A DNA stretch of 64,000 bases from a virus. Positions 10,341 to 62,651 of this stretch are shown here, piece by piece. The stretch covers positions 44,671-108,670 of IMG/VR virus record IMGVR_UViG_3300023184_004051, one strand, 5' to 3'. The notes under the pieces are model-generated. The model did not search any database, was not told where the DNA came from, and saw only the letters and a list, made by a program, of their open reading frames with translations. The position numbers were made by a program, and so were the translations under genes. The stretch's first letter is position 1, and the number at the start of each line of letters is the position of its first letter.

Positions 10341-10387
10341 TTGTCGTGAATACTCAACTGTGCTACACTTCCAAAACCGACTAAGGA
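10341..10387 (+). promoter_or_regulatory. Promoter plus ACCGACTAAGG leader box
   Basis: TTGTCG-17-TACACT, then accgactaagga at 10376-10387 merging with the SD. Confidence 0.6.
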
Positions 10388-10394
10388 GTAGCCT

Positions 10395-33338: not shown

Positions 33339-33913
33339 CCCGTGAGGAAACAGCAATCGTCTGCGCCACTTTGTCGGCTGCGTTTCCAAACTGGGTCGTC
33401 ACTAGTGAAACCATCGAGATGTGGCAAGCGATGTTGCAGGACTTGGATGGCTCTGTGGTGTTCCAAGCGGCACAAGAGTGGGTTTTGACCGACGAGCGGT
33501 ATCCGAGTATTGCTGGCATCCGCAAGAAGTGTGCTGAAATCACAGGCTCGCTCGCTCCAAGCGCCTCCGAAGCGTGGGCTGAGGTCATTGAGATGGTGGA
33601 AAGATACGGGAGCAGTCGAGGTCATCGCCCCGATTGGACACACCCCCTCGTCAGCAAAACCGTCAAGGCGATTGGCTACCGGCATATCTGTATGAGCGAC
33701 AACATCATCGCCGTCAGAGCGCATTTCACCAAAATGTTCAACGAGTTTGCGGTTTCATACAACAACGACATCATCACCTCAAAGCGATTTGAGTTGGGTG
33801 GCGAAATGGTTGCGCTGCCATACTCAACTATGGTAGGGTTGCCAAGCCAGAAAAACCTTCCGGCATCCGACCAAGGAGTATTGGACTATGAGCCAAGACA
33901 CACCACCCGTTGA
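33335..33913 (+). CDS. Replicative helicase loader/inhibitor-like protein
   Basis: MTREE......L..AFP...W...L.D...PSIA.IR...EAW.EV; ATGA-coupled to the initiator. Confidence 0.65.
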   Translation: MTREETAIVCATLSAAFPNWVVTSETIEMWQAMLQDLDGSVVFQAAQEWVLTDERYPSIAGIRKKCAEITGSLAPSASEAWAEVIEMVERYGSSRGHRPDWTHPLVSKTVKAIGYRHICMSDNIIAVRAHFTKMFNEFAVSYNNDIITSKRFELGGEMVALPYSTMVGLPSQKNLPASDQGVLDYEPRHTTR

Positions 33914-54703: not shown

Positions 54704-55318
54704 ATGTCCGACACTTCCAATACTCCCGAGTTCACCTTGCCGCCCCTTCCCGAAAAGGGTAAGAGGACAGGCAGAAAGACCCTTCTCACCCCAGAGGTCA
54801 CCGATGCCGTTGTAAGGCTTCTCAAAGCCGGAAACTACCTCAGTCAAACAGCACGGTATCTCGGCCTAGACCCAACCACTCTGAACAGTTGGAGGGCAAG
54901 AGGGAACGAACTGATGGCAAGTGGGAGGGAGGATTTGGATGAATACGAACAAATGTTCGTAGACTTCTCCATTGCCGTAGAGAGTGCAAAGGCTGAGGCT
55001 GAAATCAGGGCAGTAGACATCATCCGCAAGGCTATGCCGAAAGATTGGCGAGCAGCAACTTGGTATTTGGAAAGAACCAACAACCGAGATTGGGGAGCAA
55101 CCCAACGGACAGAGGTATCAGGCCCAGATGGAGGGGCTATCCCGATAGATGTGGACAGTGTGTATCGGAAGTTGGAAGCGGTCACCCAAAGGGTCGTTTT
55201 GGAAGCCGAGATTGCATCTCAGCCGACAGAGAGTGCGGAACTACCAGAGAGTGCCGGAGATGGTGAAATAGAGGCCAATGAGCCGGTTGTAGAGAGTGAA
55301 CCGAATAAGGCGTTATGA
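54704..55318 (+). CDS. terS: Terminase small subunit
   Basis: GRKT.LT, HTH, DWRAA.WYLER...WG...E.SGPDGG.I; lies upstream of terL. Confidence 0.75.
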   Translation: MSDTSNTPEFTLPPLPEKGKRTGRKTLLTPEVTDAVVRLLKAGNYLSQTARYLGLDPTTLNSWRARGNELMASGREDLDEYEQMFVDFSIAVESAKAEAEIRAVDIIRKAMPKDWRAATWYLERTNNRDWGATQRTEVSGPDGGAIPIDVDSVYRKLEAVTQRVVLEAEIASQPTESAELPESAGDGEIEANEPVVESEPNKAL

Positions 55319-55447
55319 CCCAATATTGGCGTTATGACAGCCCTGCCCTTACGAGCCTCGGAACTTCCCTTCCCAAAACTCAACCGTCGTTTAGTGAAAT
55401 CCAATAAAAGACTTGACTTTGGATGTGGGTTGCGTTAGCCTGCGTTT

Positions 55448-55584
55448 GGCCGCAACAAGGCGGCCCAAAAACATAGAAGTTCAGGGACTACACACCCTGC
55501 ACCTCTACCGCAAACAGCGAACAAGAGCCGGCCCCGCCACAAGACTGACCTGTCCAAGTCAGAGGGGTCGGCTTGTTGCGTTGT
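55448..55584 (+). ncRNA. Predicted structured small RNA (RNA-C)
   Basis: TTGACT(55413)-17-TAGCCT promoter; three consecutive hairpins; no ORF with an RBS. Confidence 0.45.
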
Positions 55585-55785: not shown

Positions 55786-55896
55786 CACTACGATGCGCTC
55801 GCTCGACAAAAAACCCCGAGTTTTGGAAAACTCCGCAGATTTCAGCAGATTTTCGTAGACGAAAAACCCCCCGTTCCAAAACGCAACACGGGCAGA

Positions 55897-56019
55897 CAAA
55901 AACCCCCTCGCAAGCGAAAACAAGGGGGCTTCGTCTTAGTTAGGGAGGGCAACACCGCAGCCGTCGTCGAATGAATACCGACTAAGGAAAAACAGAGAAA
56001 CGACGACTACGGGTTGCCG
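55897..56019 (-). ncRNA. Predicted antisense sRNA-A
   Basis: TTGACA(56049-54)-17-TATGAT(56026-31); long stem with a pyrimidine-rich loop containing TTCCTTAGTCGGTAT; terminator at 55897-55933. Confidence 0.65.
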
Positions 56020-56104
56020 ACTCACATCATAAAGCGAACACAGGTTCGTGTCAAGCGGTATGTGACACCCCCCTCGTAAACTTGTTCCCGGAGGGGTCTG
56101 TCTC

Positions 56105-56198
56105 CGTACAGCGCAAGACCCCCACCGGAGGTCGGTGAGGGTCTTATGCGCCCGACTAAGAGCGAGCGGCGGCGACGAAGTGGGGGCTTCATCACCTG
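56105..56198 (-). ncRNA. Predicted antisense sRNA-B
   Basis: TTGCAT(56227-32)-17-TAGAGT(56204-09); 5' hairpin, linker containing CTTAGTCGG, 3' GC-rich hairpin. Confidence 0.55.
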
Positions 56199-56239
56199 CA
56201 ACTACTCTATCACGGTTGAGTGACCAATGCAAATCGGGC

Positions 56240-56661
56240 AAAGAAAAAAGCCCCACCCCGAAGGGTGAGGCTCTGTCTCGCAAGGCTACTTATCGGATTT
56301 CCCTTTTCCTCAGGCTAACCGCTCTCGCTCCCCACTTCCTAGACAGCGCGGCTACACCTCCTACGAGTGCCACTTCTAGGCTTGCCCGCACACTTGCGCG
56401 ATTGGGCTTTGAGTATTTGTGACCCGATGAGTCTGGCGTGTCACCCTGCTAGCCCACACGCCTTTGGATGGAAGGTCAAGCGCAACCTGCCGGCCCGCTA
56501 TCGCTCGTCATCCTCCGGCGCAGAACGCACATAGGGATTTCCCTTTCTAAGAGGTAGACCCCCCCAAACTGCTCAGCCTTAGAAGCCCGCAGCCCAAAGT
56601 GACACAACACACCCATCGGATTTCGTTGTCAAGGAACTTCGTGAGGTCTACCGCCCCTCAC
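56240..56661 (-). ncRNA. Predicted ~360-420 nt structured RNA of unknown class
   Basis: TTGACT(56691-96)-17-TATGGT promoter (weaker second TTGACA at 56627-32); multiple stems; TTCG-loop terminator with T-run at 56240-56272. Confidence 0.5.
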
Positions 56662-56722: not shown

Positions 56723-56836
56723 TCAACAACCTTCCTCTCGCATCTGGCTCAACAGCATCTCATCTGCGAGTGCTTCCAAGTCCTCGTCGGACATACCCTC
56801 GAAGTTGCTCGCTACCATCTCATCCCAAGTCATCAT
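56723..56836 (-). CDS. 37-aa acidic microprotein
   Basis: MMTWDEMVASNFEGMSDEDLEALADEMLLSQMREEGC; gaggtg RBS; TTGACT(56895-900)-17-TAGAGT promoter. Confidence 0.55.
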   Translation of the reverse strand: MMTWDEMVASNFEGMSDEDLEALADEMLLSQMREEGC

Positions 56837-56965
56837 CAGTCACCTCGTTCTCGTTGTATCTACTACACCACACTCTATCAAGAGGGTGTCACATAGTCAA
56901 GTCATTTTGGAAATATTATTTGGCGGCCCCTTGCTCGACACCACCCCTCCTTGTATTTTGGAAGT

Positions 56966-57310: not shown

Positions 57311-58276
57311 ATGAACCAAATCATCCAGCGGCTTTTGGAAGCCGGCCCCGAACAGAAGCGGCAAATCTTGTCGAGTCTGTCAAAAGACGAGTTAGCAGTC
57401 GTCTACCGTGAGTTGGAAGTCATCGAAAGCAGCCCAACACGGCGTTGGTATTGCCCCCGTGAGGTCTGCAACGGCGAGCCACACGCAGGATTTCACTGGT
57501 GCGACCACCCGATTGACGGGAACCACACGCCATACTGCAAGCACGCTCGAACACCACAGCGCCCGCCGGAGGAAACGGCAGACAAGCCGTGGCTTACTTG
57601 GTTCTTTAGCGGCGGTCGAGGAACGGGAAAGACACGAGCCGGAGCCGAGTGGGTTTTGGATTTGGTATGGAACCAAGGCTACAAGCGCATCGCACTTGTC
57701 GGTCGAACACCAGCCGATGTCCGAGATGTGATGATTTACGGGGATAGTGGAATAATGTCCGTGAGCGACCCCCATCCCCGCCCCACACACGAGCCGACCA
57801 AGCGCAGGCTCATCTGGCCGAATGGGGCGCAAGCCTTCACCTATTCCGCCGCCGCTCCGAGTCAGTTGCGTGGCCCTCAGCACGATGCGGCGTGGTGCGA
57901 TGAGTTGGCCGCTTGGACTGACGCTCCAAAGGGCGATGTTTTGGACACCTCTTGGAACAACCTGATGCTCGGCTTGCGTCTGGGGACAAATCCAAAGGCG
58001 CTCGTCACCACCACTCCAAAACGAGTCAAGTTGGTTCGACAAGTTATGGAGCGTCGAACAACCGTGATTACACAAGGAACGACCTACGAGAACCTTTCCA
58101 ATATGGCCGCTTCCTTCCGTGAGAACGTGCTTGCGGCCTACGAAGGCACACGCATTGGCGAACAGGAGTTGATGGGAACCCTCCTGACAGATGTTGACGG
58201 TGCAATGTGGACTTTGGAAATGCTCGAAAATCGAGCCGAACTTGTCGCAAGCGTGCGAGCGGGGCTAGATGATTAG
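57311..58276 (+). CDS. terL: Terminase large subunit, ATPase half
   Basis: GGRGTGKT, LRGPQ...AWCDE, TTTPK, QEL.G. Confidence 0.85.
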   Translation: MNQIIQRLLEAGPEQKRQILSSLSKDELAVVYRELEVIESSPTRRWYCPREVCNGEPHAGFHWCDHPIDGNHTPYCKHARTPQRPPEETADKPWLTWFFSGGRGTGKTRAGAEWVLDLVWNQGYKRIALVGRTPADVRDVMIYGDSGIMSVSDPHPRPTHEPTKRRLIWPNGAQAFTYSAAAPSQLRGPQHDAAWCDELAAWTDAPKGDVLDTSWNNLMLGLRLGTNPKALVTTTPKRVKLVRQVMERRTTVITQGTTYENLSNMAASFRENVLAAYEGTRIGEQELMGTLLTDVDGAMWTLEMLENRAELVASVRAGLDD

Positions 58277-58898
58277 AGTCACGCCAGACGATTTCACTCG
58301 CATCGTCATAGGGGTTGACCCATCCGTGACTTCAGGCGAGAGCGCAGACGAAACGGGCATCGTTGTAGTTGCAGCCGGCCCACACCAGCCCGATACTTGC
58401 GTGATTGAGACTTGCGACAGCCACGGCTATGTGCTACAGGATGCGACGCTCGCCAAGACCAACAAGAACAGCGTTGACGCTTGGGTGCAACGGGTCATCG
58501 AGGTCTTTGACGATTGGAACGCCAACCTTGTTGTGGTGGAAAGTAATCAGGGCCACGAACTTTTGGAAATGGCGCTGCGGACAAAGCGGCCTGACCTACC
58601 CATCAGCAGACCGAACGCCAAGGAGAACAAGAAGGCACGAGCCGAACCCATTGTGGCGCTCTACGAGCAGGGTCGAGTTCACCACGTTGGCGACGCTGCG
58701 CAGTTCGCTCAGTTGGAGGAACAGATGACGACTTGGGTTCCATCACCAGACGGCAAGCGGCGAGGCAAGTCACCTGACCGCGTTGACGCTCTTGTATGGG
58801 CGCTCGCGGAACTGAACTTGCAGGGCAAGAAATACCGCAAGCAGTTGGAAGCGTTTGCTCCGGTCAACTTCGAGCAACGCAATATGTGGCGTATCTAA
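58269..58898 (+). CDS. terL: Terminase large subunit, nuclease half (separate ORF, +1 frame)
   Basis: RIVIGVDP......DETGI, E.NQG, K..RAEP...LYEQGRVHH, SPDR.DALVWA. Confidence 0.85.
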   Translation: MIRVTPDDFTRIVIGVDPSVTSGESADETGIVVVAAGPHQPDTCVIETCDSHGYVLQDATLAKTNKNSVDAWVQRVIEVFDDWNANLVVVESNQGHELLEMALRTKRPDLPISRPNAKENKKARAEPIVALYEQGRVHHVGDAAQFAQLEEQMTTWVPSPDGKRRGKSPDRVDALVWALAELNLQGKKYRKQLEAFAPVNFEQRNMWRI

Positions 58899-61901: not shown

Positions 61902-61908
61902 CTTGCCC

Positions 61909-62194
61909 TCCTTAGTCGGTGTTGGTATTTCCCAACAACAAGAACGATAATGGGGTTGAGTCCAAAAGTCAAGTCAATGTCAAAAAAAGTTTGTCCCCGA
62001 TATCCCTTGCAAATAAAGGGCTTTCGCCGTGTGTCCAAAAATCTCTAAAAAAAACTTTGGCGAAGTCAGCCTGCGGGCAACGAAAAAACGACACCTCAAA
62101 ACAGGCTCTAAAACTTTCTTGCGAAATGACTTGACAACTAAACACGGGTAGTGCATAATGACTACATCGCAACAAGGCGATACCGACTAAGGAA
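61909..62194. promoter_or_regulatory. Divergent promoter region; both leaders carry ACCGACTAAGGA
   Basis: Minus strand: TTGACT-17-TATCGT, box at 61909-61920. Plus strand: TTGACA-18-CATAAT, box at 62180-62194. Confidence 0.65.
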
Positions 62195-62201
62195 GTGCAG
62201 T

Positions 62202-62651
62202 ATGACCGCAACCACCACCCGCCAGCAACGGCTCATCACTTGGATTGAGCGTGTGTCCGGCAAGCCGTGTGACCTCTCAATCGTTGAGGGAAAGATGGCA
62301 TCATTCAACGAGAGCCGTTTGCGCTTTCGCATTGAGCAGTTGACCGGCAAGAAGTTCGTGTTCGGCTTCGACCCAACCGACGACTCAATGGCCGTTGACA
62401 AGCCCAACACCTACGATTGGTTCCTCTCCGACACGGACATCGTGATGGAGTGGACTGACGAGGATTTGGAACTTGCCACCGACTGCGATGGCATTGACCA
62501 CTTCCACACGGTCAACATCGTGACCGACCCCTACGGTTGGACACGACAGACTTGGGAATGCGAGAACGCCGATGGCGACATCACCGAATACTCACAAATC
62601 TCGTTGGACTTCGTTCACGAGTTGGCTTACATCGTGGGAGGTGGCTTCTAA
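62202..62651 (+). CDS. Hypothetical acidic protein
   Basis: ORF following the promoter and RBS. Confidence 0.6.
   Translation: MTATTTRQQRLITWIERVSGKPCDLSIVEGKMASFNESRLRFRIEQLTGKKFVFGFDPTDDSMAVDKPNTYDWFLSDTDIVMEWTDEDLELATDCDGIDHFHTVNIVTDPYGWTRQTWECENADGDITEYSQISLDFVHELAYIVGGGF

What the first reader, a model, noticed from the sequence alone, without database searches (positions are those of the whole stretch)
56105..56232. A second, separately promoted sRNA-B carries the same anti-box seed
Seen: directly upstream of sRNA-A lies another promoter (TTGCAT-17-TAGAGT), a 5' hairpin, an unpaired linker containing CUUAGUCGG (plus-strand ccgactaag, 56152-56160) and a 3' hairpin. The scaffold is unrelated to sRNA-A but the 9-nt seed is the same, which argues against coincidence. 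Inference: redundant or differently timed regulators, with seed flanks setting target preference.
Basis: partly seen in the sequence, partly recalled or inferred. Interest (0 to 1): 0.75.

Follow-up and report, generated by a model that had tools for sequence, protein, structure and literature searches.

The report
Second conserved phage anti-leader RNA
An uncultured freshwater phage carries, next to a first small-RNA gene, a second conserved folded RNA unit with the same 9-letter mirror image of the tag on the ribosome-binding sites of its early genes. It probably helps switch those genes off, but no transcript has been seen and the mirror segment is partly folded away.

Summary
The sequence facts hold. 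TTGCAT-17-TAGAGT lies on the minus strand with an unreported TG extended -10. A 5' hairpin, CUUAGUCGG (plus strand 56152-56160) and a long 3' hairpin follow. The 9-mer is the only word of 8 or more bases shared with sRNA-A.

Its plus-strand form CCGACTAAG occurs 9 times in the 108.7-kb phage (about 0.8 expected). Seven copies lie directly 5' of GGAG/GGAA and an ATG, mostly just after sigma70-like promoters.

Two metagenome relatives (TerL 93% and 90% identical) keep the unit. The 20-nt block CGCUCGCUCUUAGUCGGGCG is the longest invariant run in the three-way alignment. The sRNA-A loop is the second longest. The flanking hairpins keep pairing through compensatory and G-U changes that fit only the minus strand.

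Corrections:
- The seed is not in an open linker. The block folds on itself (-7.6 kcal/mol; opening cost 4.3-7.9).
- There is no clear U-tract terminator.
- Predicted binding to box leaders is weaker and less specific than for sRNA-A.
- The block also contains the lambda boxA word CGCUCUUA, a rival reading.

Best reading (about 0.5): a real second anti-box RNA, the weaker partner of sRNA-A. The scan has noted similar anti-leader RNA candidates in other phages. No expression data exist.

The parts
56241..56274 (-). Intrinsic terminator of the upstream minus-strand unit (large ncRNA candidate). It isolates sRNA-B from read-through.
   Evidence: 12-bp stem, 7 GC pairs, followed by TTTTTTCTTT. A homologous terminator is present in L200 and L201.
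56204..56232 (-). Candidate promoter P_B: TTGCAT (56232-56227), 17-nt spacer containing CTCAACC, TG (56212-56211), TAGAGT (56209-56204). Predicted start at A 56197.
   Evidence: Sequence. TGnTA(A/G)AGT is kept in L200 and L201, and L200 has TTGACT-17-TAAAGT with TG, 9 of 12. The CTCAACC spacer is shared with promoters of box genes. No transcript data.
56171..56196 (-). 5' hairpin starting 1-2 nt after the predicted start.
   Evidence: fold. 6 of 10 pairs changed on both sides among the 3 homologues while pairing is kept.
56149..56168 (-). Invariant 20-nt core CGCUCGCUCUUAGUCGGGCG. It contains the anti-box seed CUUAGUCGG (56160-56152) and the lambda-type boxA word CGCUCUUA (56164-56157), and folds into a small stem-loop.
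   Evidence: Longest invariant run of the 3-way alignment (P about 0.003 for a run this long). Self-fold of -7.6 kcal/mol. Unpaired probabilities and opening energies. lambda boxA sequence from PMC2724277.
56111..56151 (-). Long GC-rich hairpin (core stem 56145-56133 / 56127-56115) with a variable loop. Possible weak terminator.
   Evidence: 16 pairs, 2 compensatory, 6 changed on one side through G-U. The tail is U-rich in L201 and L200 and was flagged as terminator-like in L201, but not in the window.
56055..56110 (-). Poorly conserved spacer or third hairpin up to the sRNA-A promoter. It holds GGTGTCACAT (56069-56060).
   Evidence: weak conservation of pairing. The 10-mer occurs only twice in the genome, as an inverted pair with 56885.
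55897..56054 (-). sRNA-A unit: TTGACA-17-TATGAT promoter, about 20-bp stem with an open loop carrying UCCUUAGUCGGUA (plus strand 55976-55988), and a terminator.
   Evidence: z = -7.9; structure kept in L200 and L201; second-longest invariant run; box leaders take ranks 1-7 of 342.
10377..10388 (+). Leader box CCGACTAAGGAG, 6 nt before an ATG (94-aa DUF7246 protein), about 7 nt after -10 TACACT.
33867..33878 (+). One-mismatch box CCGACCAAGGAG before ATG 33888 (194 aa).
61908..61919 (-). Leader box before the amidoligase gene, preceded by the hairpin GTTGG-gaaata-CCAAC and the promoter TTGACT-17-TATCGT.
   Evidence: Box and hairpin are kept, with compensatory stem changes, in L200 and L040.
62183..62194 (+). 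Leader box (GGAA variant) before the gene at 62202, preceded by the hairpin ATCGC-aacaag-GCGAT and the promoter TTGACA-17-CATAAT.
   Evidence: Kept in L200 and L040.

Best explanation
sRNA-B is a real, conserved RNA element read from the minus strand. It lies in an RNA-gene island between terS and terL of an uncultured freshwater phage.

Inferred transcription: host RNA polymerase starts at a weak -35 / extended -10 promoter near 56197. The RNA begins with a protective 5' hairpin. It then forms a small stem-loop that shows CUCUUAGU in its loop and holds the rest of the anti-box (CGG) in its 3' arm, followed by a long GC-rich hairpin. Part of the transcripts probably end at that hairpin (about 85-90 nt). 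The rest run on into sRNA-A.

Inferred action: the loop contacts the ACUAAG(G)AG stretch of the shared leader box (A-CCGACUAAGGAG, 6-8 nt before AUG). That box sits on 7-8 promoter-proximal, mostly early-type phage mRNAs. The duplex then extends to 9-11 bp, covers the Shine-Dalgarno sequence and lowers translation.

sRNA-B would be the weaker, second partner of sRNA-A, which shows a longer anti-box (13-15 nt) in an open loop.

Shown here: the sequence, the fold, conservation, strand and complementarity. Inferred only: transcription, RNA ends, pairing in vivo, and repression rather than activation.
For: 1. The box is real. CCGACTAAG occurs 9 times against about 0.8 expected. Seven copies lie directly 5' of GGAG/GGAA, 6-8 nt and ATG. 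Most follow TTGACw-17-TAnnnT promoters and a 5' hairpin. It is the top start-associated 8-mer in this phage and in relative G005.
2. The only two other copies are in the island, both on the strand that gives CUUAGUCGG in a minus-strand RNA.
3. Among window, L200 and L201 (pairwise 64-77% identical here), the two longest invariant runs are the sRNA-B core (20 nt) and the sRNA-A loop (13 nt). What they share is the anti-box.
4. The boxes are kept at homologous leaders in L200, L040 and L283.
5. Structure: 96% of cells pair against 39-48% in slid controls. Eight pairs changed on both sides against 0-3 in controls.
6. Strand: 16 G-U cells would be A-C mismatches on the plus strand. The promoters and terminators are on the minus strand. 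A tRNA-Ala lies downstream on the same strand in L200 and L201.
7. Promoter: the extended -10 is conserved, the -10-to-hairpin distance is conserved although the hairpin sequence differs, and the CTCAACC spacer is shared with box-gene promoters.
8. The region is not coding. Indels of 1, 2, 5 and 7 nt break every frame.
9. With accessibility included, all seven box leaders fall in the top 46 of 342 start regions for sRNA-B (-8.2 to -13.3 kcal/mol against a mean of -3.9).
Against: - No transcript evidence of any kind, and the host is unknown.
- The promoter in the window matches only 7 of 12 positions.
- No U-tract terminator follows in the window.
- The seed is half sequestered, with an opening cost of 4.3-7.9 kcal/mol.
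- Pairing to the box is 9 bp plus one wobble. Box leaders are not the top-ranked targets. A plain duplex scan with the 20-mer does not list them in the top 22.
- The invariant block is 11 nt longer than the seed, and box pairing alone does not explain that.
- Box and anti-box never vary in the three homologues, so there is no box/anti-box covariation.
- Box-less relatives (G004, G001) have neither the RNAs nor a matching substitute system.
- The block also equals lambda boxA over 8 nt.
Confidence: 0.5

Rival explanations
1. The conserved block is a boxA-type (nut/rrn-like) site. NusB/NusE would bind CGCUCUUA on the nascent P_B transcript and make RNA polymerase resistant to Rho and to the hairpin terminators. 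The untranslated array downstream (sRNA-A, and tRNA-Ala in the relatives) would then be transcribed. On this reading the match to the anti-box is partly built in, because CUUA resembles the anti-Shine-Dalgarno sequence, and partly chance.
For: - CGCUCUUA (56164-56157) is identical to lambda nutL/nutR boxA (PMC2724277).
- It lies about 33 nt after a promoter, between hairpins, and upstream of non-coding RNA genes.
- In L200 and L201 a tRNA-Ala follows sRNA-A after a terminator-like hairpin with no promoter of its own.
- BoxA regulation beyond rRNA is documented (PMC5725501).
- This reading explains why CGCU, 5' of the seed, is invariant.
Against: - The match was found after the fact.
- It fits the gamma-proteobacterial consensus GYTCTTTAANA at only 6 of 10 specified positions.
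- There is no other boxA-like word after any other promoter in this phage or its relatives.
- The long hairpin has a variable loop, so it is no boxB-like protein site.
- sRNA-A has its own near-consensus promoter downstream of the site, so the array does not need it.
- The window phage has no tRNA and has three tandem terminators, yet it keeps the block unchanged.
- Given a boxA, the next five bases GUCGG matching the box has P of about 0.001.
- Earlier notes of this scan on boxA-like words in prophage leaders were mostly not borne out. Those are unchecked AI notes.
Confidence: 0.2
2. sRNA-B is not a separate RNA. It is the 5' part of one B-A (and, in the relatives, tRNA) precursor. The two anti-box copies would then act together on one molecule, or the B part would only be a processed leader.
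For: - No U-tract terminator lies between B and A in the window.
- The B hairpin tail runs straight into the sRNA-A promoter.
- In L200 and L201 the tRNA must be co-transcribed with sRNA-A.
- From my own knowledge, P1 c4 RNA carries two short antisense segments on one processed RNA.
Against: - sRNA-A has its own conserved promoter, 11 of 12 in the window.
- The long GC-rich hairpin is followed by a U-rich tail in L201 and L200, which may terminate transcription.
- The spacer after it is the least conserved part of the unit.
Confidence: 0.15
3. The invariant stem-loop is a binding site for a phage or host protein, for example an RNA chaperone or nuclease, or a DNA operator read as the near-palindrome CGCTCG...CGGGCG. 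The match to the box would then have no pairing role.
For: - The block is exactly self-complementary and is invariant over 20 nt, more than a 9-nt seed needs.
- Another candidate operator pair lies nearby.
Against: - This does not explain why the shared part of the two most conserved blocks of the island is the anti-box.
- The stem needs a U-G pair, so it is a better RNA hairpin than DNA palindrome.
- No second copy of the 20-mer exists in the genome (one search lists only itself as a perfect match).
Confidence: 0.1
4. The functional strand is the plus strand. The two island copies would then be box-bearing decoys or relics of gene leaders: a hairpin followed by CCGACUAAG, as in real leaders.
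For: On the plus strand the long hairpin is followed directly by CCGACUAAG. That resembles the hairpin-A-box layout of true leaders.
Against: - No plus-strand promoter lies between 55600 and 56900.
- There is no start codon after either copy.
- 16 G-U pairs would become A-C mismatches on the plus strand.
- Terminators and the relatives' tRNA are on the minus strand.
Confidence: 0.03

Closest known systems
c4 antisense RNA of phages P1/P7 (immI region)
   Same: A phage-encoded, short, folded, non-coding RNA that blocks expression of phage genes through short complementary segments near a ribosome-binding site (role of C4 in ant repression: PMC8198154; details of the paired segments are from my own knowledge).
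   Different: c4 sits in the operon it controls and acts on one transcript. Here two separately promoted units with unrelated folds would act in trans on 7-8 dispersed leaders. No Rfam C4 match appeared in the island even at E up to 5.
Start-associated sequences (SAS/ESAS) of Cluster K mycobacteriophages
   Same: A phage-specific motif of about 13 nt that includes the Shine-Dalgarno core. It sits 3-7 nt before start codons of non-structural genes and is often preceded by an inverted repeat. Rare copies lie in the opposite orientation away from gene starts. The authors left open whether an RNA or a protein binds it (PMC3203893).
   Different: The sequence (GGGATAGGAGCCC) and host differ. No partner RNA is known there, and the authors found little support for RNA hairpins upstream. 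Here the upstream hairpins show compensatory changes, and the reverse copies sit in conserved promoter-driven RNA units.
Sibling sRNAs with a shared seed (OmrA/OmrB, Qrr1-4)
   Same: More than one sRNA carries the same seed and would regulate an overlapping target set, which allows redundancy or different timing (my own knowledge).
   Different: Those siblings are duplicates with related scaffolds. sRNA-A and sRNA-B share only the 9-mer and present it differently: an open 30-nt loop against a small stem-loop.
boxA of lambda nut sites and rrn leaders (NusB/NusE site)
   Same: An identical 8-mer CGCUCUUA, close to a promoter, flanked by hairpins and upstream of untranslated RNA genes.
   Different: It does not fit the rrn-type consensus. 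There is no conserved boxB-like loop, and an N-like gene was not looked for. The conserved block extends 3' as GUCGGGCG, which boxA does not explain.
T4 RegA (translational repressor) and RegB (cuts GGAG in early mRNAs)
   Same: A phage device that shuts down a set of early mRNAs at their ribosome-binding sites (my own knowledge).
   Different: Those are proteins. Here the proposed effector is RNA, and specificity would come from 6 extra bases 5' of the Shine-Dalgarno sequence.

Membership tests
Trans-encoded base-pairing sRNA | Own promoter | tested here: inconclusive
   TTGCAT-17-TG-n-TAGAGT matches 7 of 12 in the window. The extended -10 is kept in 3 of 3, and L200 reaches 9 of 12 with TG. 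This is sequence only, with no start-site data.
Trans-encoded base-pairing sRNA | Rho-independent terminator at the 3' end | tested here: inconclusive
   No terminator was called in the window after the long hairpin. A terminator-like call was made in L201 and the tail in L200 is U-rich.
Trans-encoded base-pairing sRNA | Conserved seed complementary to target translation-initiation regions | tested here: met
   CUUAGUCGG is invariant in 3 of 3 inside a 20-nt invariant block. It is complementary to 7 exact leader boxes.
Trans-encoded base-pairing sRNA | Seed accessible (single-stranded) | tested here: inconclusive
   The loop CUU is open (unpaired probability 0.75-1.0, at least 0.96 in the relatives), but GUCGG is mostly paired. 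Opening costs 4.3-7.9 kcal/mol. Net predicted binding is still -8 to -13 kcal/mol.
Trans-encoded base-pairing sRNA | Expressed as a discrete RNA; regulates targets in vivo | not testable with these tools
   No transcriptome is available, the phage is uncultured and the host is unknown.
boxA / Nus-factor antitermination site | boxA sequence | tested here: inconclusive
   8 of 8 to lambda boxA CGCUCUUA, but only 6 of 10 specified positions of GYTCTTTAANA.
boxA / Nus-factor antitermination site | Promoter-proximal position upstream of untranslated or terminator-containing transcription units | tested here: met
   About +33 from the predicted start. sRNA-A, terminator-like hairpins and (in L200 and L201) tRNA-Ala lie downstream.
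boxA / Nus-factor antitermination site | NusB/NusE binding and terminator read-through | not testable with these tools
   Needs biochemistry or reporter assays.
Rfam families (including C4 antisense RNA) | Covariance-model match | tested here: not met
   No match at gathering score in the 64-kb window. With E up to 5 on the island, only five weak hits appeared, none over sRNA-B and none to C4.
Protein-coding gene | Reading frame kept among homologues | tested here: not met
   Indels of 1, 2, 5 and 7 nt among the three homologues break all frames.

The most novel reading that the evidence does not exclude
The phage runs an RNA-only shut-off of its sigma70-driven early regulon. Two structurally unrelated small RNAs from one RNA-gene island each present the mirror image of a start-associated leader tag. 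One does so in an open loop for strong binding. The other does so in a kissing-type stem-loop, which may double as a boxA-like antitermination site controlling read-through into sRNA-A and the tRNA. This would be the first identified partner for a start-associated-sequence type motif and an RNA counterpart of T4 RegA.
Probability: 0.25. Interest if true: 0.75.

Novelty: new variant of a known kind. Interest (0 to 1): 0.55.

Why it matters
Phage-specific motifs fused to the Shine-Dalgarno sequence of many non-structural genes have been known since 2011 without a known binding partner (PMC3203893). Here the motif's mirror image is the most conserved part of two promoter-driven RNA units. That gives a concrete, testable partner: reporter fusions with compensatory mutations.

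If both RNAs act, the pair shows two unrelated scaffolds carrying one seed in a virus. It would be a compact RNA timer for early-gene shut-off.

If the boxA reading is right instead, it would show Nus-type antitermination protecting a phage RNA-gene array.

On its own, sRNA-B is the weaker half of the story. Without sRNA-A and the boxes it would not stand out.

Tried and rejected
- blastn of the island against 50,697 phage records found no match.
- blastn against 79 TerL-related viral loci found no match. Only metagenome loci L200 and L201 share the island.
- Exact-pattern scans of viral contigs:
  - The box-plus-ATG pattern gave only single, apparently chance hits.
  - The sRNA-B core gave none.
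  - The sRNA-A loop pattern gave ribosome-binding sites of unrelated phages, plus L283, a true relative carrying boxes.
- A covariance model of sRNA-B searched over 85 sources (0.9 Mb) found no further homologue.
- The genome-collection scan with the 20-mer gave one hit, in a Treponema MAG. It is 26 nt identical but lies at the end of an ORF (..AAARS*) in an unrelated context. I judged it chance in GC-rich coding sequence.
- The box/anti-box covariation test in box-less relatives G004 and G001 was not possible. They have no anti-box RNAs. G004 has a different start motif (AAGGAGGAAC) with no reverse copies.
- The TerS-based locus search found no close relatives.
The contigs of TerL relatives P0002-P0007 (85-92% identical) could therefore not be fetched.
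- Target-ranking methods that failed:
  - Plain duplex energies are dominated by GC-rich runs.
  - Cofolding cannot model pairing in sRNA-A's loop.
  - My first accessibility script failed on over-long duplexes. One search is the working version.
- Small-ORF readings (115 aa and 59 aa on the minus strand, 95 aa on the plus strand) were rejected because of frame-breaking indels.

Full report
**Setting.** The window is the last 64 kb of a 108,670-bp IMG/VR phage contig. Genes run on the plus strand up to a small-terminase gene (54704-55318; phrog_4102). A gene-poor island of about 2 kb follows, then a split large terminase (57311-58276 and 58269-58898). Rfam finds no known RNA family there. ARAGORN finds no tRNA in the window.

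**The observation.** On the minus strand I read:
- TTGCAT (56232-56227), 17 nt, then TAGAGT (56209-56204), with TG at 56212-56211
- a hairpin at 56196-56171
- CUUAGUCGG at 56160-56152
- a long GC-rich hairpin, core 56145-56115

The consensus scan did not list this promoter, which matches 7 of 12 positions. It did list sRNA-A's promoter (11 of 12) and a strong terminator just upstream of the unit (56274-56247). The 138-nt RNA folds better than all 200 shuffles (z = -4.2). sRNA-A folds with z = -7.9. The two RNAs share no word longer than the 9-mer.

**What the 9-mer mirrors.** CCGACTAAG occurs 9 times in the genome against about 0.8 expected.
- Seven copies read (A)CCGACTAAGGAG or ..GGAA, then 6-8 nt, then ATG. 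One more copy has a single mismatch.
- Most follow TTGACw-17-TAnnnT promoters by 10-35 nt.
- Several are preceded by a 5-6-bp hairpin with an A-rich loop.
- The genes are small and mostly of unknown function, plus an amidoligase operon.
- UAAGGAG is itself a strong Shine-Dalgarno sequence. The phage-specific part is ACCGAC.
- The motif is the top start-associated 8-mer in this phage and in the fragment G005.

The closest published parallel is the start-associated sequence of Cluster K mycobacteriophages. Its binding partner is unknown, and it also has rare reverse copies (PMC3203893).

**Relatives.** TerL searches gave many relatives at 70-85% identity without any similarity in the island. Two metagenome contigs, L200 (93%) and L201 (90%), align across sRNA-A and sRNA-B.
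- In the three-way alignment (448 shared columns, 58% invariant), the longest invariant run is CGCTCGCTCTTAGTCGGGCG (56168-56149). The second longest is TCCTTAGTCGGTA in the sRNA-A loop.
- A run of 20 has P of about 0.003 under independence.
- The shared part of the two best-conserved blocks of the island is therefore the anti-box. I regard this as the strongest single argument that the 9-mer match is functional.
- The boxes are kept at the homologous amidoligase and neighbouring leaders in L200 and L040, and at four leaders in L283. Their upstream hairpins carry compensatory stem changes.

**Structure and strand.**
- The 5' hairpin of sRNA-B has a different sequence in the window than in L200 and L201, yet it still pairs. 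Six of its 10 pairs changed on both sides.
- The long hairpin keeps pairing mainly through G-U changes.
- Overall 96% of cells pair, against 39-48% when partners are slid. Eight pairs are compensatory, against 0-3 in the controls.
- Sixteen G-U cells would be mismatches on the plus strand.
- Promoters and terminators also point to the minus strand. L200 and L201 carry a tRNA-Ala(UGC) on that strand about 25 nt after sRNA-A's last hairpin.
- Indels break all reading frames.

**Promoter.**
- TGnTA(A/G)AGT is kept in all three. L200 has TTGACT at -35.
- The hairpin starts 1-2 nt after the predicted start in all three, although its sequence differs.
- The spacer word CTCAACC recurs in promoters of box genes.

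This supports a start here, but it is not proof.

- The seed is not in an open linker. The invariant 20-mer is self-complementary (CGCUCG/CGGGCG, CU/AG, loop CUU; -7.6 kcal/mol).
- Unpaired probabilities are high for CUU and low for GUCGG.
- Opening the 9-mer costs 4.3 kcal/mol in the window and 5.9-7.9 in the relatives.
- This looks like a recognition stem-loop rather than a free seed.
- There is no clear terminator after the unit in the window.

**Target ranking.** I wrote an accessibility-aware ranking that adds duplex energy to the opening energies of both partners. I applied it to 342 candidate start regions.

| RNA | Ranks of the seven exact-box leaders | Energies (kcal/mol) | Mean (sd) over all regions |
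|---|---|---|---|
| sRNA-A | 1-7 | -12.5 to -17.6 | -3.1 (3.6) |
| sRNA-B | 6, 10, 20, 22, 34, 44, 46 | -8.2 to -13.3 | -3.9 (3.75) |

The top sRNA-B hits use GCCGCC, a stretch that is not conserved in the relatives. sRNA-B is therefore a plausible binder of the box, but clearly weaker and less specific than sRNA-A.

**Rival.** The core contains CGCUCUUA, the lambda boxA word (PMC2724277). It lies about 33 nt after the promoter and upstream of untranslated RNA genes. Nus-factor sites outside rRNA are documented (PMC5725501).

Against this reading:
- It fits only 6 of 10 specified positions of the rrn-type consensus.
- There are no other such sites in the phage.
- sRNA-A has its own strong promoter downstream.
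- The window phage lacks the tRNA but keeps the block.
- The extra GUCGG matches the box (P about 0.001).

The two readings are not exclusive.

**Verdict.** sRNA-B is very likely a real conserved minus-strand RNA element (about 0.9). It probably has its own start (about 0.65). Its most likely role is pairing with the leader box as the secondary partner of sRNA-A (about 0.5).

An earlier follow-up on sRNA-A in this scan reached a compatible view. Similar anti-leader RNA candidates were noted in other phages. Those are unchecked AI notes, and I do not count them as evidence.

Noticed in passing
window 57311-58898; loci L003-L026: The large terminase is split into an ATPase ORF (about 315 aa) and an overlapping nuclease ORF (about 209 aa). 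The same split recurs in most relatives, so it is not an assembly error. Other relatives carry intein, Hint or homing-endonuclease domains in TerL (P0017, P0025, P0029, P0066, P0067).
   Followed up: partly
L200:1847-1920 (-), L201:871-946 (-): A tRNA-Ala(UGC) lies about 25 nt after sRNA-A's last hairpin on the same strand, with no promoter between them. The window phage has three tandem minus-strand terminators there instead (55805-55930).
   Followed up: partly
L201:1310-1800 (-): An insertion of about 400 nt between the large ncRNA candidate and sRNA-B. It carries its own TTGACA-17-TACAGT promoter, a small ORF and a terminator. The island is a stack of exchangeable minus-strand units.
   Followed up: no
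window 61920-61940 (-), 62160-62182 (+), 55440-55465 (+); L200, L040, L283: Box leaders and another promoter-proximal unit begin with a 5-6-bp hairpin with an AACAAR-type loop. The stems differ between relatives by compensatory changes (GTTGG/CCAAC versus GTGGG/CCCAC; ATCGC/GCGAT versus GTCGC/GCGAC).
   Followed up: partly
window 56885-56894 (+) and 56060-56069 (-): GGTGTCACAT occurs only twice in the 108.7-kb genome, as an inverted pair. One copy is inside the spacer of the 56900 promoter. The other is just upstream of the sRNA-A -35. It is a candidate operator pair.
   Followed up: partly
whole genome G000; also G004, G005: The 10-mers TGCTGAAATC (36x), TAGTGAAATC (33x) and TTCCAAAACT (24x) are hugely over-represented on both strands. 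TAGTGAAATC is also enriched in relatives.
   Followed up: partly
window 56286-56340 (-): The 3' part of the large ncRNA candidate upstream of sRNA-B is well conserved in L200 and L201 (blocks GCGGTTAGCC and CCGATAAGTAG). No Rfam family matches it.
   Followed up: no
G004 (L288-L293): This 113.7-kb relative lacks the box. It has AAGGAGGAAC(C) at 14 ribosome-binding sites, and a repeat AAGGGCGGGCCTGGTTC occurring 10-16 times.
   Followed up: no
L301:120-150 (-): A Treponema MAG contig shares 26 identical bases with the sRNA-B core and its window-specific 5' flank. The match lies at the end of an ORF, and I judged it chance.
   Followed up: partly
window 56723-56836 (-): A 37-aa ORF with a GAGG ribosome-binding site follows the TTGACT-17-TAGAGT promoter at 56900. 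It is a micro-protein candidate in the island.
   Followed up: no
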